Source: Methanomicrobiales archaeon
Lineage (GTDB): Archaea > Halobacteriota > Methanomicrobia > Methanomicrobiales > Methanospirillaceae
Assembly: GCA_037137755.1 (NCBI GenBank)
Contig: JBAXJR010000033.1
Coordinates: 1 to 24,990, forward strand
DNA length: 24,990 bases
Reading direction: 5' to 3'
Both the position numbers and the translations under genes were made by a program. This document shows positions 1,291 through 10,062 of this stretch, piece after piece; the first letter of the stretch is position 1, and each line of letters opens with the position of its first letter. The notes under the pieces were generated by a model. That model had not been told where the DNA came from and searched no databases. It saw nothing but the letters and a program-made list of their open reading frames with translations.

Positions 1291-1362
1291 GCCGCCGTGG
1301 CTTAGGGGTATAGCGGCTGATTCGTAATCAGCAGGTCGAGGGTTCAAATCCCTCCAGCGGCT
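1291..1362 (+). tRNA. tRNA-Thr(CGT)
   Basis: Cloverleaf: anticodon arm GCTGA-TTCGTAA-TCAGC, T arm GAGGG-TTCAAAT-CCCTC, acceptor GCCGCCG/CAGCGGC with one C-A mismatch, U discriminator; AT-rich box at ~1250-1260. Confidence 0.95.
1347..1362 (+). repeat. attL core (3' end of tRNA-Thr)
   Basis: AATCCCTCCAGCGGCT, identical to 10047-10062. Confidence 0.92.
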
Positions 1363-1386
1363 TGTCGTAATTGTTCTAATCCAACA
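1362..1386. repeat. Inner-end inverted repeat, left copy
   Basis: TTGTCGTAATTGTTCTAATCCAACA; its reverse complement matches 10024-10048 at 21/25 positions. Confidence 0.85.
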
Positions 1387-1418
1387 CCCTATTTTCACAG
1401 GGCAGAGAAGATACGGCC

Positions 1419-1494
1419 CCATTCCATAAAGTCCGGTATTGTTGCGCTATGGGGCTTGAATCGGGAAAGGAATTATTCTCTTTGGCTCGCTGCT
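1419..1494 (+). repeat. 76-bp direct repeat A, copy 1
   Basis: 75/76 identical to 2921-2996; the pair brackets the sheath-like gene. Confidence 0.95.
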
Positions 1495-1574
1495 CTTCTA
1501 TGACAAGAAATTCGGTTTCAATAGAGCAATCTATAAATATAGTCAAACAAGAAGTTTTTGTTACCAGGGGTAAT

Positions 1575-1637
1575 TTTAAATATCATACTTTGTGTGAGAT
1601 CATGGTGTTTAAAAATAGTCTGGGAGATTTTGGAGGT
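1575..1637 (+). promoter_or_regulatory. Putative TATA box (TTTAAATA, 1575-1582) and RBS (GGAGGT, 1632-1637) of the sheath-like gene
   Basis: Consensus-like archaeal TATA box; Shine-Dalgarno sequence 7 nt before the TTG at 1645. Confidence 0.55.
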
Positions 1638-1644
1638 TGAAAAT

Positions 1645-2733
1645 TTGAAGAAAATTGGCGTTATTATAATTGCCTGTTTAATGTTGATAGCATTTATTGG
1701 TTTTGCTTCAGCAGATCGTGTCGTTCCGGCAGTCCCTGAAACACAGGGTATTGTTACCACAACCGTTGCAAATGTAGACGGTCTCGTCATGGAAACCGAC
1801 GCAGGGGTATGGACTCTGACTGATAATCCCTATAAAATGCACAAGGTTAGTGCCGCAGCTGCGCTTATGGCTACAATTCCGGGGTGGTATTGGATTATGC
1901 TGCCAGCCGATCGGGATCAATTAATCGCAGCGGGAGGGTCATATAAGGTCAATGCTTTACATGAACTTACCGAAATAACCATCCCCGATTCATTAATGAA
2001 TGTGCAAAGAGCCAGTGGATATAATGGCACATGGGGTGAGTGGTATGCTCTCGTACTATCACTTAACCCAACCGCAATCGTAACCGATATCGACTCCGGC
2101 ATTCACACGGGTATCCTCAACACAGGACAGGTGCAGTACACCACCTCGTACGACAAGAACATCGTCGCACAGACTGGACTGACCTCACTTGTAGCAAGCC
2201 AGAACCTCAACACCGGCAACAAGGTAATCGGTCAGTCGAACCTCGACGCCAAGACCGCACTTACCTTCATTGCAACCGGTGACGGTGGAAACGTTGTAGG
2301 TAGCGAGAACCTGATGCTCGACGGTGCAGCCAACGGCAAGACCGCTTCAGACGTTATGCTCTGTCCGTTCTCATCCGCAGGCGCTAACATCATTCCAGCA
2401 TACTGCAACATCATCCAGGCAGGTAGTGCATACGACCTGACATTCGGCTCAGTTACAACCGCTGCAAACGAGAGGTTTGTCGGTACTGATGCAACCATGC
2501 CTGTCGTCCTGAACTACAACATCAACGTTAAGCCATACGGCACATCCGCCGGACAGATCCCGGCAGTCGGCTCGGCATCAGCTTACGTGAAGTCTCACAT
2601 CCAGGAAGCAAGAGGAACAACCAACAACGTTAGAAGCGAAGACGTGGTTTACTCCGAGACCTCAAGTGTTAACGGTATGATCTCCGGATTCACTAAGGAC
2701 ATCAAGTACCAGTCTGGTATGTCTTTACTCTAG
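1645..2733 (+). CDS. Secreted beta-rich protein, probably of the Methanospirillum-type major sheath protein (MspA/SH) family
   Basis: TTG start after GGAGGT; Sec signal peptide KKIGVIIIACLMLIAFIGFASA|D; VPAVPETQGIVTTT, GQVQYTTSYD, MLCPF...IPAYCNII and HIQEARG motifs recalled from Methanomicrobiales sheath-protein paralogs (memory-based); rich in T/S/G/N. Confidence 0.65.
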   Translation: MKKIGVIIIACLMLIAFIGFASADRVVPAVPETQGIVTTTVANVDGLVMETDAGVWTLTDNPYKMHKVSAAAALMATIPGWYWIMLPADRDQLIAAGGSYKVNALHELTEITIPDSLMNVQRASGYNGTWGEWYALVLSLNPTAIVTDIDSGIHTGILNTGQVQYTTSYDKNIVAQTGLTSLVASQNLNTGNKVIGQSNLDAKTALTFIATGDGGNVVGSENLMLDGAANGKTASDVMLCPFSSAGANIIPAYCNIIQAGSAYDLTFGSVTTAANERFVGTDATMPVVLNYNINVKPYGTSAGQIPAVGSASAYVKSHIQEARGTTNNVRSEDVVYSETSSVNGMISGFTKDIKYQSGMSLL

Positions 2734-2920
2734 ACGAGTTTGAGACGGGAATAAGGAAATAAGGGAGAAATACTTCCTCCTACATCCTTGTTCTTTTCAA
2801 AAAATTGCGATTTTTCCCGGAAGATCTATTTTCTCGAAATTTTAGAATGCTGAAAAAATGGGCCTATTCCCTCAAAGTTTCATATGTTCAAATCATGCCC
2901 CTTGCATACTAATTTTGAGT

Positions 2921-2996
2921 CCATTCCATAAAGTCCGGTATTGTTGCGCTATGGGGCTTGAATCGGGAAAGGAATTATTCTCTTTGGCCCGCTGCT
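2921..2996 (+). repeat. 76-bp direct repeat A, copy 2
   Basis: 75/76 identical to 1419-1494. Confidence 0.95.
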
Positions 2997-3056
2997 ATTT
3001 ATGCCTCCCTCTCTGGATACCTGCTTATCTTTGCGATATATGGCTTTAATTGTGGG

Positions 3057-3656
3057 TTAATTTAGGTCCCCGTTCTTCCTCCTTCTCCGGTGTAATTGCA
3101 TTGGAGAAAGTTTTAATTTCCCGGCTATTTGCACCCATGAGAGACCATCCTTCCGCCATGCCTCTACCTTCTGCCAGTCGATGTCATTTCTTGGCCTCCC
3201 TAACTTCTTACCCTCTGCCTTGGCCCTGTCTAGACCTGCCTTCGTGCGCTCTACAAGGTTTGCCCGTTCCCTTTCCGCGACCCATGAAAGTATCATGGTC
3301 ATTAACTGCCTCATTGCCTTGTCCTCGCTCCGGGTGAATCCCTCGTTGGGTGAAAGGCTCCAGACACAGATTCCTTTTTCTTCGAGAACCTGAATGATGC
3401 TAATGGTTTCATAGGTGGTTCTCCCTAACCGGGATAACTCATAAACACAAAGGCATTTTACTTCCGGGTGGATCTCAATGAAATTCATGAGTTTCTTAAA
3501 CCCGGGTCTCTTCAGTGCCGGGACTGTTCCGGACACTCCGTTGTCAGTGAAAATACAGTCTTCCGCGACACCCTCTTTAATCAGGATATTCTTTTGATTG
3601 TCGGTATTCTGCTCCGTTGTCGAAACCCTGACATATCCAATCTTTGTGCAGTTCAT
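3057..3656 (-). CDS. Small serine recombinase (resolvase/invertase) with C-terminal HTH
   Basis: GYVRVST catalytic Ser motif, RPGF, VYELSRLGR, AERER...ERTKAGL..AKAEGKKLGRP, terminal HTH. Confidence 0.95.
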   Translation of the reverse strand: MNCTKIGYVRVSTTEQNTDNQKNILIKEGVAEDCIFTDNGVSGTVPALKRPGFKKLMNFIEIHPEVKCLCVYELSRLGRTTYETISIIQVLEEKGICVWSLSPNEGFTRSEDKAMRQLMTMILSWVAERERANLVERTKAGLDRAKAEGKKLGRPRNDIDWQKVEAWRKDGLSWVQIAGKLKLSPMQLHRRRRKNGDLN

Positions 3657-3667
3657 AGTAACTTAAA

Positions 3668-3738
3668 CCCATATAACATAATGGGATGCTTAAGCATATA
3701 ACATATTCATTCCTTTATGTTACTATTTTTTGACATAA
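3668..3738. promoter_or_regulatory. Putative res-like recombination/operator site overlapping the resolvase promoter
   Basis: CATATAACATA twice (3670-3680, 3695-3705), palindrome ATGCTTAAGCAT (3686-3697), inverted pair TTATGTTA (3715-3722) / TGACATAA (3731-3738). Confidence 0.5.
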
Positions 3739-3760
3739 AAATAAGCGACCTTCTTCGTAT

Positions 3761-3870
3761 TTCCAGTGGAAGCGAAATTGAGAAAATGATAGGAACGGTG
3801 CTTTAATCGCAGGATTTCCAGTGGAAGCGTATGTTATCCAGTGGAAATTCCGCGCATTGTTCCAGTGGAA
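3761..3870. repeat. Four copies of palindromic TTCCAGTGGAA
   Basis: Copies at 3761, 3816, 3836 (ATCCAGTGGAA) and 3860. Confidence 0.85.
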
Positions 3871-3877
3871 GCAGTGG

Positions 3878-3960
3878 TTAAAATCAGATTGAAGAATATC
3901 TCTTCAATTCGGGGTTTTTTGCCCACTCTTCATGAGCAGTTCTGCGAGTTTCTCATATGA
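3878..3960 (+). repeat. 83-bp direct repeat B, copy 1 (diverged duplicate of the 3' end of the TerS-like gene)
   Basis: 74/83 identical to 5728-5810; minus strand reads SYEKLAELLMKSGQKTPN* versus SDEKLAEQLMKSARKTPN*. Confidence 0.9.
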
Positions 3961-4101
3961 GGGTCTTTTTACAGGACAGTGATGGATCAGCCAACGTCAC
4001 AAAGCCCGGTATCGTTGCGAGAGTTGCAAAATAGGGGTTAATTCAATCAATCATTCAAGTTTTGAAATAGGCGCGTTTATCCCTCATCATCTATATGTAT
4101 T

Positions 4102-4884
4102 ATGATGAAGAGGATTTCTTTTATTTTTTTGGCTGCGATAGTTCTAGTCGCATGTGCTGCAACTCTTGCAGGATGTGTTGCTCAATCCACAGCCCCTATT
4201 GGGGTAATAACTACACCCACATCGACCCCCGAGACTATAACTCGGGTAGATGAAACTGGGTTTTATTTGGTAGACGGTCCTGCTAAGTCCCATAATCCTG
4301 TAACAACAATGGTCACGCTGGAAATTACAAATATGGGAGATTTCGATGCTAAAAATGTTCAAGCGCATGTAAAATTAATTTATAAAGGAAATACTCTTGA
4401 TGAAAATACTCTAAACTTTGGAACTGTTAAGGTCGGAATGCCAGTTAAAAAAGAGTTTGTCATGAAGGCACAATTCTCTCCGGCTGATTGGAAATCATAT
4501 ACAAGTGCTAGTTATGAAGGAATGGAATTAAAAACGGATAGTATTACGGGAGATAATATTCCAAATTCTTACACATCGTCATCGGGGTCAATACCTACAT
4601 TGGTCAAATCAACCACCCCAAAATATAAAAAGGGCGATATTATAGGCGATCTGCAATATCCATTTTATTATGAACCAAGATATCATCCCGGCTCGGATTT
4701 GCCATATATGGTAAGGGGTTACAATGTGACCCCATCGGGCACCTATTATACACTAGAGCCTCAAAACATCGAAATAATGTATGGAAGTGATATGTATGTC
4801 CCTTCAAGCTCCCCCACCATAGTTATGGAAATTAATGAAGCGGAGCAGGAATATCCATATTTATTTGATACTTATTCAATCTAA
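4102..4884 (+). CDS. Lipoprotein with a CARDB/Ig-like segment
   Basis: Signal peptide with lipobox LAGC, T/P-rich linker, VTLEITNMGDFDAKNV Ig-like motif; AT-rich codons; T-tract after the stop. Confidence 0.75.
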   Translation: MMKRISFIFLAAIVLVACAATLAGCVAQSTAPIGVITTPTSTPETITRVDETGFYLVDGPAKSHNPVTTMVTLEITNMGDFDAKNVQAHVKLIYKGNTLDENTLNFGTVKVGMPVKKEFVMKAQFSPADWKSYTSASYEGMELKTDSITGDNIPNSYTSSSGSIPTLVKSTTPKYKKGDIIGDLQYPFYYEPRYHPGSDLPYMVRGYNVTPSGTYYTLEPQNIEIMYGSDMYVPSSSPTIVMEINEAEQEYPYLFDTYSI

Positions 4885-5047
4885 AGATAATTTTTTTTCG
4901 TTTTATAGCCAATGGCCCGATATGTGGTGTATTCTGTCTTTTTTAATTGAAAAATGGAGGGAGTCATCGTTACGGGTTTTTCTCCACACATAGGTGGACG
5001 ATCAGAACCGGGAATACATTATTGTCTTGCGACACTGTATCAGCACC

Positions 5048-5707
5048 ATGAAGAAATATCTGATACTCTTGATTTCCGTTGCCTTTGTTGCGGTAATGTT
5101 CGCCGGTTGCACAAGTTCAAGCCCGGCCCCAGATGTTCCAACTCCGACACCCACACCGCAAATTGTGTACGTCACCGTTCTCGTAACTCCAACCACGACG
5201 CAAAAAGTTCCGACAACTAATATGTTAACGAATCAAAATACCGCAGGGATTGCCAACCCTGCCTCGGTTTATTGTAGCCAAGTAGGTGGGACGGATATTA
5301 TCAAGAAGGACACAACAGGAGCAGAATATGGCATGTGTACATTTCCAGATGGTACCTCCTGTGAGGAGTGGGCACTTTACCGTGGCCAGTGCAAGCCAAA
5401 AGTATCAGTTTCCACACCTGTTATCACTTACATTTCAAGTTCGACAATTCCAGCAACACTGTCCGGCAACGGTGATGATGTGGTGAATTTCGCTGCGACG
5501 GGTACAGGGCTACGTATTTTTACAATGAGATATACAGGGACGTCAAATTTTGCAGTGATTCTGAAAGATGGTAATGGGGGATACCTTACGTTGCTTGCGA
5601 ATGAAATCGGATCTTATTCGGGTAAGAAATCCGAACAACTTACAACGGGAAAATATTATTTGGATGTAACAGCAAGCGGGCCTTGGTCAATTCAGATTGC
5701 AAGTTGA
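5048..5707 (+). CDS. Lipoprotein with a DUF333 domain and a C-terminal beta-sandwich
   Basis: Start MKKYLILL at 5048, lipobox FAGC, PTPTPTPQIVYVTV linker, DUF333 motif IANPASVYC...GMCTFPDG..CEEWALYRGQC. Confidence 0.85.
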   Translation: MKKYLILLISVAFVAVMFAGCTSSSPAPDVPTPTPTPQIVYVTVLVTPTTTQKVPTTNMLTNQNTAGIANPASVYCSQVGGTDIIKKDTTGAEYGMCTFPDGTSCEEWALYRGQCKPKVSVSTPVITYISSSTIPATLSGNGDDVVNFAATGTGLRIFTMRYTGTSNFAVILKDGNGGYLTLLANEIGSYSGKKSEQLTTGKYYLDVTASGPWSIQIAS

Positions 5708-5727
5708 TACAGGCACATAAATATCAA

Positions 5728-5810
5728 TTAAAACCGGATTGAAGAATATCTCTTCAATTCGGGGTTTTTCGCGCACTCTTCATGAGCTGTTCTGCTAATT
5801 TTTCATCTGA
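5728..5810 (+). repeat. 83-bp direct repeat B, copy 2
   Basis: 74/83 identical to 3878-3960; contains ATTGAAGA-N5-TCTTCAAT inverted repeat and overlaps the TerS-like stop codon. Confidence 0.9.
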
Positions 5811-6203
5811 CAGATTTGTTATTTCTGCTGATGTGTTGATACTGATTTGAGATTGTGTTTGTATAGCGCCTGTGACCTTTCCAATCAATTCGAGGATTGA
5901 TCGGATTTCCCTAATGGCAACGAGCGCAGTACGGCGATCTCCCGCTTCCTCTGCTTGGTCGAGGATACTGGTTGCTCTTTCCGAGAGGGCTGTCACCTGC
6001 TGCAACAGGGTTCCGGCTTCCGCAACCACCTGAGCCTCATGAGCCTTCACTAGATGGCTTGGCAGGTGCTGAGCGTGCCGCTGTAGGGTTGTTGATGAGA
6101 TTCCCCACTGACCCGAGATACTCCGCAACGAGGCCCCGCCCACTATTGCGGCGTTAATCGTGGAGCAGTCAAGATGGCTGCAAACAGTGCATAGTCGCGG
6201 CAT
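5754..6203 (-). CDS. Virus-type HTH protein, putative terminase small subunit
   Basis: MPRLCTVCSH (CxxCxH) + HTH (SLRSISGQWGISSTTLQRH) + helical oligomerisation region (RTALVAIREIRSILELIGKVTG) + LSDEKL tail; architecture recalled from proteins encoded upstream of TerL in proviruses; RBS GAAGGGAG. Confidence 0.55.
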   Translation of the reverse strand: MPRLCTVCSHLDCSTINAAIVGGASLRSISGQWGISSTTLQRHAQHLPSHLVKAHEAQVVAEAGTLLQQVTALSERATSILDQAEEAGDRRTALVAIREIRSILELIGKVTGAIQTQSQISINTSAEITNLSDEKLAEQLMKSARKTPN

Positions 6204-6303
6204 TTTGTCTCCCTTCGATCTCCTGCTCATCTTCTCTGACTCGCTGCTCTGCCACGGGCCCGATAAAACGAGCGCCGGAGGGCAATGGGATGTTTTCAAT
6301 CAT
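6169..6303 (-). CDS. Small hypothetical protein (44 aa), not in the ORF track
   Basis: MIENIPLPSGARFIGPVAEQRVREDEQEIEGRQNAATMHCLQPS*; GGGGTGA RBS just upstream; fills the gap in the operon. Confidence 0.35.
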   Translation of the reverse strand: MIENIPLPSGARFIGPVAEQRVREDEQEIEGRQNAATMHCLQPS

Positions 6304-6306
6304 GCG

Positions 6307-6651
6307 TCACCCCGCGATCTGCTTCTTGGCGTGTGAACGCTTCACGGGTGCAGGTGCCATGACTGGCGTTTGAGTCTGTTCGACAATCGGGGCCGGGAAT
6401 GGGATTTTCTGGGTTTCCCAGTTGATCGCCAGTATCTGATGGCAGGAATCGCAAATGTAATCTTGGTTCCTTGGGACTGTATGCAGAGGCACATAGACCT
6501 TGTTCACCTGATACGATCCGCATCGGGCACAGGGTCTTCCTGTTCCATAGGTCGGCGTCCGCCAGGACGACGGGTCTTTCTTTCGTTCTGCGTCTTCTGC
6601 AATCTTCTCCGGGGTGAGTTCTGGTTTAAGATGTTGTGTTAGTGCTGCCAT
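6307..6651 (-). CDS. Zinc-finger hypothetical protein
   Basis: CARC...CDSC motif pair; AAGGAG RBS upstream. Confidence 0.7.
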   Translation of the reverse strand: MAALTQHLKPELTPEKIAEDAERKKDPSSWRTPTYGTGRPCARCGSYQVNKVYVPLHTVPRNQDYICDSCHQILAINWETQKIPFPAPIVEQTQTPVMAPAPVKRSHAKKQIAG

Positions 6652-6748
6652 AATTTTAATCTCCTTTTGATAATGGGTTGTTCGTAAATCGGTGCATCAT
6701 TTGATGAATGCCGGGGCCTGAATGTGATAGCGTTGGGGGGCTACACGA

Positions 6749-7129
6749 TCAGACACCCGACCTTTTGAGTAATGGGCATTTACTCGACGCGATTCCCATA
6801 ACAGAATAGCCTTTGAGGACTCCTGCCTTGATTTCAGCCAGAACAGCGGCGTCTTCTACCTTCGATGCGAGAATCCACGACCCCTTTGGGAGTGTGACCT
6901 GACGGCCTTCTAAGGTTACCTGCATCGGTGCAGGTAGCAGGTATGACTCTACAGGAACAGCGACGTTCTTGAGTGTGTGCCGGATATCGATGTTGCGATA
7001 GTCAGACATCCACTTGTGTGCAATACGTTGGATTTCCTTTTCGGTGAGAAGTTTTTCACCCCTTGTTCGGTCGCAATCGGCCAATCCGGGCACGAGTACG
7101 CAGCCGTATACGATCCCTTGCTCGGTCAT
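6749..7129 (-). CDS. XkdF-like putative prohead (capsid maturation) serine protease
   Basis: IVYG.VLVP..., EIQRIAH.W, IDIRH, PVESY, PKGSW, IKAGVLKGYSVMG match the PBSX XkdF-like family pattern; TAATG overlap with the upstream gene. Confidence 0.8.
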   Translation of the reverse strand: MTEQGIVYGCVLVPGLADCDRTRGEKLLTEKEIQRIAHKWMSDYRNIDIRHTLKNVAVPVESYLLPAPMQVTLEGRQVTLPKGSWILASKVEDAAVLAEIKAGVLKGYSVMGIASSKCPLLKRSGV

Positions 7130-8082
7130 TAAATCACTCCTTTTCGTTCTAACCTGTCGATTAGCAAATCGATCTTTTTGTAAATTTCTCGGGTTCGTTG
7201 ATCCGTTTCCCTCTGGTCGAGTTCAAGTTGATCCTGCCGCCTTAGCACAGAGGGCCCGTTCTGTATCCTTGCCCTTTCCTCCAAAGCGTCTAGCATTTCA
7301 ACCGCTGGAATTTTTGTCCTGTTTGCATATTCGACCCGTAAAGAATTGCCGTGGACATATGCCTTCCACATCGCACCCTCTATTTCCTGATACTTTACCC
7401 CGCACTCAATTGTGTATTTTTGTGACTCGATATGTTCCTCATAAGATACGAAATCCCACTCCGCAGGTACAAACCCATATTTCTTTAGATCGTGTATCAC
7501 GTTGATGAGCAAGTCTAAACCGAAACCCTTTCCACCGTCTGCGCATAAGTGGATCATCTCCGTGCCCGTCGATGGGTAGGACTCCCACGTGATCTTTTGC
7601 TGAGTAACCAGATTGCGGGGAAATCCTGTTTTTGGGATTGCTTCGGATGGGTCTAAGGGTGCTGTATCAGGGCTTGTCCACTTTACCCCCCGTGCCCCCA
7701 AAGGTGACAAGGTTTTCCGGAGGGTTACGTTCTCATACAAGGCCCGTGGATTTTTGAAGAACGACGACAATTTTTTGTTTTCCCAAGTGGGATCATAACC
7801 ATAATACCCGTGCGATTTCTTCATAACCGCGCCCTTATATTTCCCCGTTCCGGTAAGGCGGCTTAATGCTTTCTTTACCGCGTCACGGGTAGATTCTGTT
7901 CGCTGTTGCAGTTCCTTCAGGCTGAATGCTTTTTGAGGATCGTCCTTCATTAGTGAAACCAGTACCATAGATAGTGCCGTCCCCTTTGGAGGAATGGGGA
8001 CAAGTGGTTTGTCCACTATCACGGGTTTTTTGTCCACTAGTGACAAGCCTGTGGACTCAGGCTCCGGACAACAGATCGTCAT
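7129..8082 (-). CDS. Winged-helix protein with C-terminal coiled coil, candidate replication protein
   Basis: N-terminal wHTH (FSLKELQQRTESTRDAVKKALSRL...KKSHGYY), C-terminal heptads; ATGA overlap with the upstream gene; function inferred from position only. Confidence 0.6.
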   Translation of the reverse strand: MTICCPEPESTGLSLVDKKPVIVDKPLVPIPPKGTALSMVLVSLMKDDPQKAFSLKELQQRTESTRDAVKKALSRLTGTGKYKGAVMKKSHGYYGYDPTWENKKLSSFFKNPRALYENVTLRKTLSPLGARGVKWTSPDTAPLDPSEAIPKTGFPRNLVTQQKITWESYPSTGTEMIHLCADGGKGFGLDLLINVIHDLKKYGFVPAEWDFVSYEEHIESQKYTIECGVKYQEIEGAMWKAYVHGNSLRVEYANRTKIPAVEMLDALEERARIQNGPSVLRRQDQLELDQRETDQRTREIYKKIDLLIDRLERKGVI

Positions 8083-8291
8083 TTTCGATACCCTTCAGAA
8101 TAAGGGAAATCCTCTGGGAATGAGATCGCCTCTACAATTTGATCATACTGGTCAGCGGGTAATTTGACCCTGAGAAGGCGCAGGGCCGCGACCCGTTCGT
8201 CCGGTGACGCATTCGATAGATCGGACAGGGCATCACAGAAAGCGGCGAAATTATCAGCGGTGATAAAGGGGGTGACGTAATCCCGGGGCAT
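8079..8291 (-). CDS. Hypothetical protein (70 aa)
   Basis: Start/stop overlaps on both sides (TGATG, ATGA). Confidence 0.65.
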   Translation of the reverse strand: MPRDYVTPFITADNFAAFCDALSDLSNASPDERVAALRLLRVKLPADQYDQIVEAISFPEDFPYSEGYRK

Positions 8292-8527
8292 CAGGCATTC
8301 ACCTCGTTGATGTCGTAAGTGATACGTCCGCCATTCAGTTCGATCAGACGAATAGCATTAATTTCTTTGACGTGTCGCTGCAACGCCCACGCACGAACCG
8401 CTTCAATCGTGACTGTCGGCGGAACGTTTATGTCCTGACAACCCGATGTGTTACATAGACCTTTTGAAGTATAGGTCACTGTATGAGGGTTTACTTGGAC
8501 GTGGCCCTCTGCAACCTCGCTTTTCAT
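8291..8527 (-). CDS. Hypothetical protein (78 aa)
   Basis: AAGGAG RBS; start/stop overlaps on both sides. Confidence 0.65.
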   Translation of the reverse strand: MKSEVAEGHVQVNPHTVTYTSKGLCNTSGCQDINVPPTVTIEAVRAWALQRHVKEINAIRLIELNGGRITYDINEVNA

Positions 8528-8682
8528 AGAGACTCCTTAAATTTGAGTTCAAGCGCTTGGGTCAAGGTGGCTGACATGCTTACCCCATTCATCCGAGACA
8601 GATTTCTCAATTTTTCATCGATCACAACGGTTACGGGGACTTTGGTTACCCCCGTTTTGGGATTATATTGAACAATTCCCAT
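8524..8682 (-). CDS. Ribbon-helix-helix (CopG/CcdA-like) regulator, 52 aa, not in the ORF track
   Basis: MGIVQYNPKTGVTKVPVTVVIDEKLRNLSRMNGVSMSATLTQALELKFKESL*: beta strand VTVVID then two helices with a GxSxS turn; ATGA overlap with the next gene. Confidence 0.7.
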   Translation of the reverse strand: MGIVQYNPKTGVTKVPVTVVIDEKLRNLSRMNGVSMSATLTQALELKFKESL

Positions 8683-8771
8683 ACCCGTTCATGTTGGCGT
8701 GGGGGTGTTATGTCACGTTCATGGCTAAGCGGTGGATGGAGAAAAAGTATAAAATTAAAAAAGGGGATAAA

Positions 8772-9989
8772 TTATCCCATTTGCCGCATACGGGCCTCAA
8801 TTTTCTCTTCGATTAGTTTATTAAGATCGATTCCTACCAATGCGTCGACCCGTTCAATCTCGCTGATCGCGTCCGGCGTCAAACCTTTGCCGCATTGCCC
8901 ACAGAATTTTAAACCGGGTGGGTTCACATACCCACACTGACATTGAACGGGGCCGAATGTCTTTCGCTCTTTTAATTTGACGGGTTCCGCATCAATCTTC
9001 CATCTTGCCTTTACGCTGTCGATAATCAGGTTATCGGTTACATGGGTATAGGTTGACAATTGCTCGGAATCTTCATTCCCCCAAGCAATTCGTTTTACAA
9101 CCGTTTCGCCTAATCCATCTTCAATCATCCGGGTAATTGCTGAATGTCTGAATAAATGGGGGGTGACGTGTTTCTGTATCCCTGCTCGTTCCGCTGCTTC
9201 TTTGATCCGCTGGCTGATGTTTGAATATTGTATCTGAACTTTTTCATTACCTACCCGGTAGAAGAATACCAGTTCGTCCGGTGGTGGTGGGCTGGCAATC
9301 CCCATATCATTCATATAACCAATCAAGAACGCTCTGCCATTCCCTGAACAGGGCACAAGCCGGGGTTTACCCGTCTTTTCATCGACATTGATAATTAAAC
9401 CCCAGTCTTCAAATTTAACCTGATTCCATCGTAACGATGCAATCTCACCCACTCGGAAAGCACCTTCTGACATCAGCATAATTATAGCCTTATCCCGGGC
9501 GTTACGGCAGTTTAGGACTATATCTTCTATTTCCTGATCCGTGAGCATCATTTCAGCGGTTTTAGTCATCCGGTCAAACCGTGGTACTTTGATTTCGCTG
9601 ACAGATCCAAGATTTAATTTAATTTTCTTATTCTTGATTAGAATCAGGTAAAACCGTTTTAGAATCCTACAATAGTCGCTTTTTGTATTCTGCTTTATAC
9701 TTGAATCGGCCTTAATCGCTGAAATTGCCGCGTCAAGTTCATCGTTATTCACATCAGCGAATGGTTTTTTCAGGTAGCGGTGACGACCACCAATCAGGGT
9801 GTAAATCAGTTTATATTTCCGGGCCATTGATAGGCTTGTTGATGCTTTCTCCGATTTCACTATAAACAGTTCAATCAGTTTTTTATCATCAGGGGTTATC
9901 CTTCCATCTTTAACCGATTCGAAAAAGATATTGTCAATATACCGTTCATACTGCGTTTTAGTTCCGGTGAATCGTGATTCTGGCTCCAT
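8772..9989 (-). CDS. Tyrosine recombinase/integrase with C-terminal zinc ribbon
   Basis: Catalytic set R (GAFRVGE), K (KTGKPR), HxxR (HLFRHS), W (IAWG), Y (STYTH); CQCG...CGQCG; starts ~60 bp from attR. Confidence 0.95.
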   Translation of the reverse strand: MEPESRFTGTKTQYERYIDNIFFESVKDGRITPDDKKLIELFIVKSEKASTSLSMARKYKLIYTLIGGRHRYLKKPFADVNNDELDAAISAIKADSSIKQNTKSDYCRILKRFYLILIKNKKIKLNLGSVSEIKVPRFDRMTKTAEMMLTDQEIEDIVLNCRNARDKAIIMLMSEGAFRVGEIASLRWNQVKFEDWGLIINVDEKTGKPRLVPCSGNGRAFLIGYMNDMGIASPPPPDELVFFYRVGNEKVQIQYSNISQRIKEAAERAGIQKHVTPHLFRHSAITRMIEDGLGETVVKRIAWGNEDSEQLSTYTHVTDNLIIDSVKARWKIDAEPVKLKERKTFGPVQCQCGYVNPPGLKFCGQCGKGLTPDAISEIERVDALVGIDLNKLIEEKIEARMRQMG

Positions 9990-10023
9990 ACCATTACTTA
10001 CTCGTTAAAGAATATATAATTTC

Positions 10024-10048
10024 TGTTGGATTAGAAGTATTATGATAA
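10024..10048. repeat. Inner-end inverted repeat, right copy
   Basis: TGTTGGATTAGAAGTATTATGATAA, inverted relative to 1362-1386 (21/25). Confidence 0.85.
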
Positions 10049-10062
10049 TCCCTCCAGCGGCT
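10047..10062 (+). repeat. attR core (duplicated tRNA-Thr 3' end)
   Basis: Identical to 1347-1362. Confidence 0.92.

What the first reader, a model, noticed from the sequence alone, without database searches (positions are those of the whole stretch)
1645..2733. Sheath (MspA-like amyloid) protein gene carried as cargo on a mobile element
Seen: an intact secreted beta-rich protein gene with its own TATA box and strong RBS, inside the att boundaries. Known: the Methanospirillum sheath is built from the amyloid-like MspA/SH protein, and this ORF shows motifs I recall for that family. Inference: the element supplies an alternative sheath subunit with a different exposed insert (about 1820-2090, Trp/Tyr-rich). 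This could be surface conversion that alters virus receptor exposure, analogous to phage serotype conversion.
Basis: partly seen in the sequence, partly recalled or inferred. Interest (0 to 1): 0.75.

Follow-up and report, generated by a model that had tools for sequence, protein, structure and literature searches.

The report
Sheath-protein gene captured by integrated element
An intact gene for a building block of the protein tube that encloses some methanogens has been copied from the host's own gene array into a small mobile element; mobile copies of such genes were already known from viruses.

Summary
ORF 1645-2733 (+, TTG start, 362 aa) is intact. It has a 23-residue signal peptide and a beta-rich fold. 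It lies inside an 8.7-kb element integrated at tRNA-Thr: 16-bp att repeats at 1347-1362 and 10047-10062, empty sites in three same-genus genomes, and a tyrosine integrase.

It belongs to the archaeal sheath (SH/MspA) family. The family profile matches a published SH-like protein of a Methanospirillum provirus (hhalign 98.9%, E 1.4e-17). Architecture, a cysteine pair 14 residues apart, copy number and taxonomic spread also fit. The host is an uncultured Methanoregulaceae lineage, not Methanospirillum.

The gene is one unit of a host-type tandem SH array, copied with its upstream module, promoter and downstream region. The 84-nt repeats that bracket it are the array's periodic intergenic module, not recombination sites. 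The core is 91-96% identical to array copies (dN/dS about 0.1); the outward-facing cap is 41-58% identical. RNA-library contigs match the cap-coding part without a difference.

"Alternative subunit with a different exposed insert" is supported, but every paralog has its own cap. "Receptor-masking surface conversion" is untested. SH-like genes on viruses, some recently taken from hosts, were published in 2024, so this is a new member of a known kind.

The parts
1291..1362 (+). tRNA-Thr (CGT), the integration target
   Evidence: ARAGORN; Rfam tRNA, 65.3 bits
1347..1362 (.). attL core, a 16-bp direct repeat at the 3' end of the tRNA
   Evidence: Exact 16-mer shared with 10047-10062; empty-site alignment
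1363..1386 (.). Left terminal inverted repeat of the element (candidate integrase binding site)
   Evidence: Inverted pair I2, arms 1359-1386 and 10024-10051, 82% complementary
1419..1502 (+). Left copy of the 84-nt repeat D2: the upstream intergenic module of SH array units. It contains a 21-nt motif at 1426-1446.
   Evidence: 96-97% identical to 2921-3003; a diverged homolog sits between tandem SH genes in L075; the motif lies upstream of SH genes in L080, L085 and L086
1532..1582 (+). Two TATA-like boxes (1532-1539 and 1575-1582): candidate promoter
   Evidence: Read from the sequence; the first box is conserved in L075; an RNA-library contig covers from 1603, but contigs cannot show a transcript start
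1632..1637 (+). Ribosome-binding site GGAGGT
   Evidence: Read from the sequence
1645..2733 (+). SH (sheath) family gene, 362 aa: signal peptide 1645-1713, N-terminal strand to 1827, cap 1828-2103, amyloid-like core 2104-2730
2734..2914 (+). Downstream region copied together with the gene from an SH array
   Evidence: Window 2078-2914 is 89.5% identical to array units in L074 and L075
2921..3003 (+). Right copy of D2: the orphan upstream module of what was the next array unit
3057..3656 (-). Small serine recombinase (resolvase/invertase type)
   Evidence: Pfam PF00239, E 1.4e-34; PHROG DNA invertase, E 2e-47
4102..4884 (+). Secreted lipoprotein-like ORF (leader ends L-A-G-C). A variant of the 21-nt motif lies at 3999-4019.
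   Evidence: Translation; motif scan; no Pfam family
4994..5707 (+). Lipoprotein-like ORF with a DUF333 domain
   Evidence: Pfam PF03891, E 2.8e-22
5754..8082 (-). Four element ORFs: 181 aa (5754-6299), 114 aa (6307-6651), XkdF-type protease domain of 126 aa (6749-7129), and ORF317 (7129-8082)
   Evidence: PF14550, E 4.3e-22; PHROG head maturation protease; ORF317 model and fold search
8772..9989 (-). Tyrosine integrase
   Evidence: PF00589, E 2.3e-26; NCBIfam XerA-type hit below its cut-off
10024..10062 (.). Right terminal inverted repeat (10024-10046) and attR core (10047-10062)

Best explanation
The ORF encodes a working subunit of the archaeal cell sheath (SH/MspA family).

Steps shown here:
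- The ORF is an intact family member under purifying selection.
- Window 1419-3003 is slightly more than one repeat unit of a host-type tandem SH array: upstream module, promoter, gene, downstream region, then the upstream module of the next unit.
- This unit sits next to attL inside an 8.7-kb element integrated at tRNA-Thr, which carries a tyrosine integrase.
- RNA-library contigs identical to this copy exist.

Steps inferred:
- The precursor is exported by Sec and its 23-residue leader is cut off.
- The N-terminal strand and the C-terminal core fold into the two-sheet amyloid-like domain.
- That domain joins host SH subunits edge to edge in the sheath rings.
- The 92-residue cap, specific to this copy, faces outwards.

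The cell therefore probably displays one more cap variant beside those of its chromosomal array. Whether this helps the element or is hitch-hiking DNA is open; I rate hitch-hiking or mild surface diversification as most likely.
For: Family membership:
- BLASTP against the 288-aa ORF L105:2249-3112(-) of IMGVR_UViG_3300005403_000166 gives 26% identity over 234 aa, E 1e-17.
- hhalign of the family profile A3 against the same ORF gives probability 98.9%, E 1.4e-17.
- By eye that ORF equals vir387_00084, an SH-like protein in Supplementary Data 1 of PMC11576556. The UViG is listed in their Table S7.
- The ORF's N-terminal pattern (P-E-T-Q-G ... E-T-D ... W-T-L) appears in their SH alignment rows for Methanolinea_B mesophila (by eye). 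A related pattern (P-E-N-Q ... W-T-I) appears in the M. hungatei rows (by eye).
- The two invariant cysteines, C240 and C254, are 14 apart, like C257 (PMC10593813) and C271 (PMC6242892) of the M. hungatei protein. C240 lies in a loop with pLDDT below 50 (237-244); Cys257 is described as sitting on a flexible linker loop.

Distribution:
- 17 profile matches in G000.
- Matches in 14 of 29 other genomes of the family, 0 of 12 in genus g6, and 1 of 121 genomes of the other five families.
- This parallels Table S1 of PMC11576556, where Methanoregula has 0 and other Methanoregulaceae have 5-31.

Copy of an array unit:
- Loci L072-L076 hold 2-3 tandem copies each. Their units align to window 1514-2914.
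- The core tree nests the window copy in the array clade, support 100/100.

Selection:
- Core dN/dS is 0.06-0.13 against 7 array copies.
- Core amino-acid identity is 91-96%; cap identity is 41-58%.

Integration.

Expression: contigs from 2 RNA libraries of 1 study match without a difference at 1808-2124, 1888-2108, 1650-1757, 1603-1737 and 2590-2730.

Co-assembly: complex prediction with the array paralog P0002 gave weak support.
- Score 0.60; best of 3 controls 0.00.
- The mark was reached by 116 of 157 solved complexes and by 2 of 215 mismatched pairs.
- Scores of 0.60 or under came from only 18 of those 157, and from both mismatches that passed.
- The three runs agree in at least 85% of contacts; the partner's pLDDT is at least 72.
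Against: - No direct comparison with the M. hungatei sheath protein WP_011449234.1 was computed. Its sequence could not be obtained, and no SH structure is in the PDB.
- The two-sheet topology was read from the secondary-structure string only, not from coordinates.
- Contigs from RNA libraries do not prove transcription and cannot give expression levels (tool warning).
- DNA contigs that share parts of this gene in other contexts exist in the same waters (loose ends at 1519, 1711, 2011 and 2857). Some RNA contigs could therefore stem from mosaic paralogs. The contigs at 1808-2124 and 1650-1757 do bridge 2011 and 1711 in the window's arrangement.
- The complex score is only 'weak support', and close paralogs would be expected to dock.
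- No other instance of this element was found, so it is unknown whether SH carriage is a stable trait.
Confidence: 0.7

Rival explanations
1. Surface conversion. The element expresses its own cap variant so that the sheath surface changes and viruses or other agents that dock on host caps bind less well. This would be analogous to serotype conversion by prophages.
For: - Caps face the cell exterior in M. hungatei (PMC10593813).
- Caps are the only hypervariable part of these paralogs: 41-58% identity against 91-96% in the core.
- RNA-library contigs match this cap.
- The element also carries two lipoprotein-like genes. One is preceded by the same 21-nt motif as the SH gene, so its cargo is rich in envelope genes.
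Against: - No receptor, virus or adsorption data exist.
- The host array already offers at least 3 other cap-bearing paralogs, so one more need not dominate the surface.
- Cap dN/dS stays below 1 (0.17-0.68), and dS there is saturated.
- The element lacks recognisable virion genes apart from one protease domain, so a superinfection-exclusion motive is unclear.
Confidence: 0.15
2. Sheath sabotage for egress (the model of Medvedeva et al. 2024). The mobile SH-like protein enters nascent hoops and weakens the sheath so that particles can leave.
For: The model was proposed for virus-encoded SH-like proteins with signal peptides that AlphaFold2 predicted to bind host SH (PMC11576556, section 8). 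The element holds an XkdF-type protease domain typical of head-tailed viruses.
Against: - The published viral proteins are 159-288 aa and mostly capless. This one is 362 aa with a cap.
- Its core is 91-96% identical to host array copies and under purifying selection, which is what an ordinary subunit looks like.
- No capsid, portal or terminase was detected in the 8.7 kb.
- The A3 scan of IMG/VR found no relative of this subfamily.
Confidence: 0.08
3. The gene is not cargo in any functional sense. The element is a decayed remnant, and the SH unit landed in it later by recombination with the array. It is simply a displaced host paralog.
For: - Internal duplications and relics are present: D1 at 3878-3971 and 5728-5821, and an orphan D2.
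- The protease ORF is a lone 126-aa domain.
- ORF317 has relatives in only 3 of 100 other family genomes, at 31-32% identity.
- A DNA contig joins 2920 to 1419, which hints at ongoing unit duplication.
Against: The integrase (405 aa) and both att cores are intact, with matching terminal inverted repeats. The unit lies 57 nt inside attL, so any excision would carry it along. This rival differs from the best explanation only in history, not in what the protein does.
Confidence: 0.3

Closest known systems
Major sheath protein SH/MspA of Methanospirillum hungatei JF-1 (WP_011449234.1, Mhun_2271; PMC6242892, PMC10593813)
   Same: - Secreted, with a 23-residue leader.
- An N-terminal strand, then an inserted cap domain, then a beta-rich core.
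- Two cysteines 14 residues apart, the first in a flexible loop.
- Multiple paralogs per genome.
   Different: - A different family of organisms (Methanoregulaceae-type MAG).
- The predicted cap has 2 helices and 3 short strands, against six helices and one sheet in M. hungatei.
- No direct sequence or structure comparison was computed here.
Multi-copy chromosomal SH gene clusters of Methanoregulaceae (UBA9949, UBA467, Methanolinea_A and Methanolinea_B; Medvedeva et al. 2024, PMC11576556)
   Same: - The same subfamily signature.
- Tandem arrays with near-identical cores.
- 5-31 copies per genome in their Table S1, against 17 profile matches here.
- Variable caps.
   Different: This copy lies outside the array, inside an integrated element. 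It has the longest tip in the core tree (0.068 against 0.011-0.036).
Virus-encoded SH-like proteins of sheathed archaea (Medvedeva et al. 2024), for example vir387_00084 of a Methanospirillum provirus
   Same: - An SH-family gene with a signal peptide on a mobile element.
- Computed homology (E 1e-17).
- The paper reports that some viral copies are 75-94% identical to host SH, meaning recent capture.
   Different: - The published carriers are head-tailed viruses or proviruses of about 15-135 kb, judging from the Table S6/S7 rows seen. Here the carrier is an 8.7-kb integrase element without detected capsid, portal or terminase.
- The published proteins are 159-288 aa and mostly capless. This one is 362 aa with a cap and its native upstream module.
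Lysogenic (serotype) conversion by prophages of bacteria (recalled general knowledge, no call)
   Same: An integrated element carries a gene that could alter the outermost cell surface.
   Different: Those systems modify O-antigen enzymatically. Here a structural subunit would be added. No phenotype is known.

Membership tests
Archaeal sheath (SH/MspA) protein family | Sequence homology to a protein already assigned to the family | tested here: met
   BLASTP E 1e-17 and hhalign probability 98.9%, E 1.4e-17, against the ORF of IMGVR_UViG_3300005403_000166. By eye that ORF equals the published SH-like vir387_00084. The comparison with WP_011449234.1 itself was not run.
Archaeal sheath (SH/MspA) protein family | Amyloid-like core of two beta-sheets, each of six antiparallel strands | tested here: inconclusive
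   The AlphaFold2 model (pLDDT 83.1) has long strands at 35-59, 163-189, 200-210, 216-229, 253-277, 288-305, 307-322, 331-346 and 349-356. That is compatible with about 12 strands, but the sheet topology was not inspected. Foldseek found nothing in the PDB or BFVD; no SH structure is deposited.
Archaeal sheath (SH/MspA) protein family | Sec signal peptide | tested here: met
   A 23-residue hydrophobic leader ending A-S-A, modelled as helix 3-21. No signal-peptide predictor was run.
Archaeal sheath (SH/MspA) protein family | Variable cap domain inserted after the N-terminal strand | tested here: met
   Capless relatives of 271-288 aa align over the N-terminus and the core only. Residues 62-153 vary, with indels, among close paralogs.
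Archaeal sheath (SH/MspA) protein family | Many paralogs, partly in tandem clusters, in sheathed Methanomicrobiales but not in Methanoregula | tested here: met
   The pattern parallels Table S1 of PMC11576556. Genus names of the G handles are not given, so the match to Methanoregula is inferred.
Archaeal sheath (SH/MspA) protein family | Physical presence in purified sheath | not testable with these tools
   This needs proteomics of sheaths from this uncultured lineage.
tRNA-targeting integrative element with a tyrosine integrase | Direct att repeats, one of them at the 3' end of a tRNA gene | tested here: met
   A 16-bp repeat at 1347-1362 and 10047-10062.
tRNA-targeting integrative element with a tyrosine integrase | Empty site in related genomes | tested here: met
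   L015, L016 and L017 join window 1362/1363 to window 10047. L014, L018 and L021 show no sequence beyond the tRNA side. L019 matches 10287 onward. L020 runs to 1395. L022 matches the tRNA side only.
tRNA-targeting integrative element with a tyrosine integrase | Integrase gene next to an att site | tested here: met
   PF00589, E 2.3e-26, at 8772-9989(-), 58 nt from attR.
tRNA-targeting integrative element with a tyrosine integrase | Excision or circular form | not tested
   No attP junction was searched for. The one empty-site-like loose end (behind 1363 in run X1) has a flank unlike the window's and stems from another strain.
Virus-encoded SH-like proteins (Medvedeva et al. 2024) | Encoded by a recognisable virus or provirus (major capsid protein and other virion genes) | tested here: not met
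   Only an XkdF-type protease domain was found. Pfam, PHROGs and NCBIfam gave no capsid, portal or terminase. The IMG/VR scans returned no relative of the SH subfamily and no locus for ORF317; 1 of the 4 pattern stretches of the ORF317 scan passed tblastn but yielded no locus.
Virus-encoded SH-like proteins (Medvedeva et al. 2024) | Short (159-288 aa), usually capless, divergent from host SH | tested here: not met
   362 aa with a cap; the core is 91-96% identical to array copies.

The most novel reading that the evidence does not exclude
The element acts as a 'sheath converter'. It moves a complete, self-regulated SH unit with a private cap, plus two lipoproteins under the same upstream motif, between lineages. 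This re-decorates the outermost surface of the host and changes which viruses or partners can dock. It would be the first case of mobile-element-driven surface conversion of an archaeal sheath.
Probability: 0.12. Interest if true: 0.7.

Novelty: new member of a known kind. Interest (0 to 1): 0.36.

Why it matters
Sheaths are the outermost barrier of several abundant methanogens, and how their many SH paralogs diversify and spread is little known. This locus gives a concrete snapshot of a whole array unit, with its control region, that has moved into an integrase-bearing element. Together with the published viral copies, it supports mobile elements as vehicles for SH exchange.

The locus also shows the pattern behind SH diversity in this lineage: cores are kept alike, while outward-facing caps diverge. 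Finally, it points to a short conserved motif upstream of SH and other envelope genes that could be tested as a regulatory site.

Tried and rejected
Searches that found nothing useful for the ORF:
- Pfam, PHROGs and NCBIfam gave no family.
- The PDB by sequence and by profile gave only chance hits, E 0.033 and E 2.
- Foldseek gave nothing at E <= 0.001 against the PDB or BFVD.
- ESM Atlas scores were at most 0.80, which is chance level.
- The listing of cluster members gave no accession numbers or names, so the M. hungatei protein could not be picked out.
- The genome-contig scan used motifs specific to this subfamily and returned only uncultured Methanomicrobiales/Methanoregulaceae MAGs.
- The IMG/VR scan with A3 found 30 pattern matches, none confirmed. 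The scan with ORF317 returned no locus.

D2 as an att site or cassette boundary of the neighbouring serine recombinase was considered and rejected:
- Array units in L074 and L075 align to almost the whole stretch between the D2 copies.
- A diverged D2 sits between tandem genes in L075.
- The core motif of D2 lies upstream of SH genes in distant loci.
- D2 does not fold better than shuffles (z +1.32) and matches no Rfam family.

A degenerate second att site in front of the right D2 was considered. The similarity there is weak and gapped, so I did not rely on it.

Read laying: no RNA-library contig lay on 1200-1575 or on 2798-4000.

The search of earlier findings by sequence, with D2 and with the protein, returned nothing.

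Full report
**What is there.** The window equals contig C33 of a 2.64-Mb, 106-contig genome, 90.6% complete. The frame 1645-2733 (+) is open. It begins with TTG seven bases after GGAGGT (1632-1637) and ends with TAG. Close homologs begin at the same aligned position with ATG or GTG. Some gene callers chose a GTG 51 nt upstream, giving 379 aa (P0001); neither the ribosome-binding site nor the homologs support that start. The product has 362 residues, with a 23-residue hydrophobic leader ending A-S-A. AlphaFold2, run with 120 relatives, gives mean pLDDT 83.1: a leader helix, long strands, and a mixed helix/strand region at residues 70-151.

**The element.** tRNA-Thr(CGT) lies at 1291-1362. Its last 16 bases recur at 10047-10062. 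I fetched nine same-genus loci with the flank.
- L015, L016 and L017 continue from the tRNA end directly into the sequence at window 10047.
- L014, L018, L021 and L022 matched only the tRNA side within the stretch held.
- L019 matches 10287 onward.
- L020 runs on to 1395.

Imperfect inverted repeats abut both cores (1359-1386 and 10024-10051, 82% complementary). A 405-aa tyrosine integrase lies at 8772-9989(-) (PF00589, E 2.3e-26). So 1363-10062 is an 8.7-kb integrated element, and the ORF is its first gene after attL. Its other genes are:
- a small serine recombinase (3057-3656);
- two lipoprotein-like ORFs (4102-4884, and 4994-5707 with DUF333);
- ORFs of 181 and 114 aa;
- a lone XkdF-type protease domain (6749-7129);
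- ORF317 (7129-8082).

No capsid, portal or terminase was detected. The element is rare. ORF317 has relatives in 3 of 100 other family genomes, at 31-32% identity. The recombinase has relatives in 6 of 60. The IMG/VR scan with ORF317 returned no locus. The only other copy seen is the identical metagenome contig L071.

**What the protein is.** No curated library names it, and no solved structure resembles it. This is expected: the sheath study of Wang et al. 2023 deposited maps but no atomic model (PMC10593813, passages). The search for homologous proteins gave 346 relatives, all unnamed or 'hypothetical'. They come in two forms:
- 340-460 aa, covering the whole ORF at 47-82% identity;
- 259-308 aa, covering 57-59% of the ORF at 61-72% identity, and lacking residues of about 62-153.

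The link to the sheath family is as follows.
- Medvedeva et al. 2024 (PMC11576556; I read the abstract, all of Results, and parts of supplements 2 and 4) list SH-like proteins of (pro)viruses in their Supplementary Data 1.
- I found one of them, vir387_00084, again in IMG/VR contig IMGVR_UViG_3300005403_000166. Their Table S7 lists this contig.
- The ORF L105:2246-3112(-) reads the same by eye.
- BLASTP of the window protein against it gives 26% identity over 234 aa, E 1e-17. A second segment covers the N-terminus, E 1e-4.
- hhalign of profile A3 against it gives probability 98.9%, E 1.4e-17 over 248 columns.

Further agreement:
- Their SH alignment shows a related N-terminal pattern in the M. 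hungatei rows and the ORF's own pattern in the Methanolinea_B mesophila rows (by eye).
- The invariant cysteines C240 and C254 are 14 apart, like Cys257 and C271 (PMC6242892, passages). C240 sits in a low-confidence loop, as described for Cys257.
- The leader has 23 residues in both proteins.

The distribution also fits. Profile A3 matches 14 of 29 other genomes of the family, 0 of 12 in genus g6, and 1 of 121 genomes of the other five families, with 3-26 matches per positive genome. Their Table S1 gives 0 for Methanoregula and 5-31 for other Methanoregulaceae. Record titles of relatives name uncultured Methanomicrobiales and Methanoregulaceae MAGs. The host is therefore not Methanospirillum. 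I could not compute a direct comparison with WP_011449234.1.

**Where the gene came from.** G000 has further family members:
- capless or short forms on C24, C5 (two), C57, C8 and C37;
- five cap-type fragments at contig ends (C29, C60 and C65 hold N-terminal parts; C41 and C57 hold C-terminal parts), 69-89% identical. This is the mark of an unresolved repeat array.

Metagenome loci L072-L076 hold 2-3 tandem copies each. Their units align to window 1514-2914, which is nearly everything between the two 84-nt repeats D2 (1419-1502 and 2921-3003, 96-97% identical). A diverged D2 lies between tandem genes in L075. Its 19-20-nt core lies about 100-135 nt upstream of SH genes in the distant loci L080, L085 and L086.

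So 1419-3003 is a little more than one array period. D2 is the array's upstream module, not a recombination site. A maximum-likelihood tree of the core (23 rows, 627 columns, midpoint root for drawing only) nests the window copy inside the array clade (100/100). It has the longest tip, 0.068 against 0.011-0.036.

**Selection and variability.** I compared the window gene with seven full-length array copies.
- The core (codons 154-362) is 91-96% identical, with dN/dS 0.06-0.13 and dS 0.27-0.44.
- The cap (codons 62-153) is 41-58% identical, with dS about 0.8-2.7 (saturated) and dN/dS 0.17-0.68.
- Among the array copies themselves, mean core dS is 0.254 and mean cap dS is 1.45.

The gene is thus maintained. 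The 'different insert' is the general hypervariable cap, of which every paralog has its own version.

**Expression and assembly.** Twenty public runs from 11 studies hold part of the stretch, 7 of them RNA libraries. I laid four of them. Two RNA libraries from one study gave contigs without a difference at 1808-2124, 1888-2108, 1650-1757, 1603-1737 and 2590-2730. Two of these bridge points (1711, 2011) where DNA contigs of other contexts diverge. Contigs do not prove transcription and give no levels.

Complex prediction with the array paralog P0002 gave weak support: score 0.60, best of 3 controls 0.00. The mark was reached by 116 of 157 solved complexes and by 2 of 215 mismatched pairs, but scores of 0.60 or under came from only 18 of those 157 and from both mismatches that passed. 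The runs agree in at least 85% of contacts, and the partner's pLDDT is at least 72.

**Reading.** The best-supported account is an ordinary, functional sheath subunit with its own cap, copied with its control region from the host-type array into an integrase element, and probably built into the rings beside the host subunits. The egress model of Medvedeva et al. fits poorly, because this protein looks like a normal subunit and the element shows no virion module.

**Novelty.** Two literature searches found SH-like genes on mobile elements described only for viruses and proviruses, in PMC11576556: 'Methanospirillum, sheath, amyloid' gave 18 papers, and 'sheath protein, archaea, integrative element' gave 409 papers with at least 2 of the terms, of which 12 were listed. 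That paper already notes that some viral copies are 75-94% identical to host SH, and it suggests virus-mediated transfer. This case adds a small element without detected virion genes and a full-length, cap-bearing copy with its native upstream module. It is a new member of a known kind.

Noticed in passing
window 1426-1446, 2928-2948, 3999-4019; G000 C1 about 134364-134384 (-), C36 about 3015-3035 (-): A 21-nt motif recurs upstream of secreted-protein genes: the SH gene, the lipoprotein ORF 4102-4884, a surface protein on C36 and an SH relic on C1. G000 has 6 hits at up to 4 mismatches, against 1 for the reversed motif. Exact 19-20-nt cores lie about 100-135 nt upstream of SH genes in L080, L085 and L086. 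It is a candidate regulatory site for envelope genes.
   Followed up: partly
window 2920 joined to 1419 (run X7): One DNA contig (358 nt, depth 5.24, 68 shared letters at the joint) links the end of the SH unit back to its start. It could be a tandem duplicate of the unit in some genomes, an excised circle, or an assembly error across D2.
   Followed up: no
window 7129-8082 (-): ORF317 is the largest element-specific protein. Its AlphaFold2 model (pLDDT 70.3, 4-row alignment) shows a winged-helix-like N-terminal part, two alpha/beta repeats and a 55-residue C-terminal helix. Foldseek's three hits at E <= 0.001 are TBP-containing transcription complexes (E 9.6e-06 and 1.1e-04, TM about 0.2) and one unrelated integrative model. 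Isolated TBP chains follow from E 1.1e-03, with probability up to 0.99 and TM 0.2-0.38. Its function is unknown; it may bind DNA.
   Followed up: partly
window 3878-3971 and 5728-5821: A 94-nt direct repeat (85% identical) overlaps the 3' end of ORF 5754-6299(-). The copy at 3878 looks like a relic of a second such gene.
   Followed up: no
window 1363 (run X1): A DNA contig runs through the tRNA and continues after 1363 with a flank like the empty site of relatives, but unlike the window's own attR flank. A related strain without the element therefore lives in the same kind of water.
   Followed up: no
G000 contig ends C29, C41, C57, C60, C65: Five contigs break inside cap-type SH genes. The host's main SH array is unassembled in this genome, so its SH copy number is underestimated.
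   Followed up: partly
window 1501-2500: G+C is 0.41 over 1501-2000 (upstream region, leader, N-terminal strand and part of the cap) and 0.53 over 2001-2500 (mostly core).
   Followed up: no
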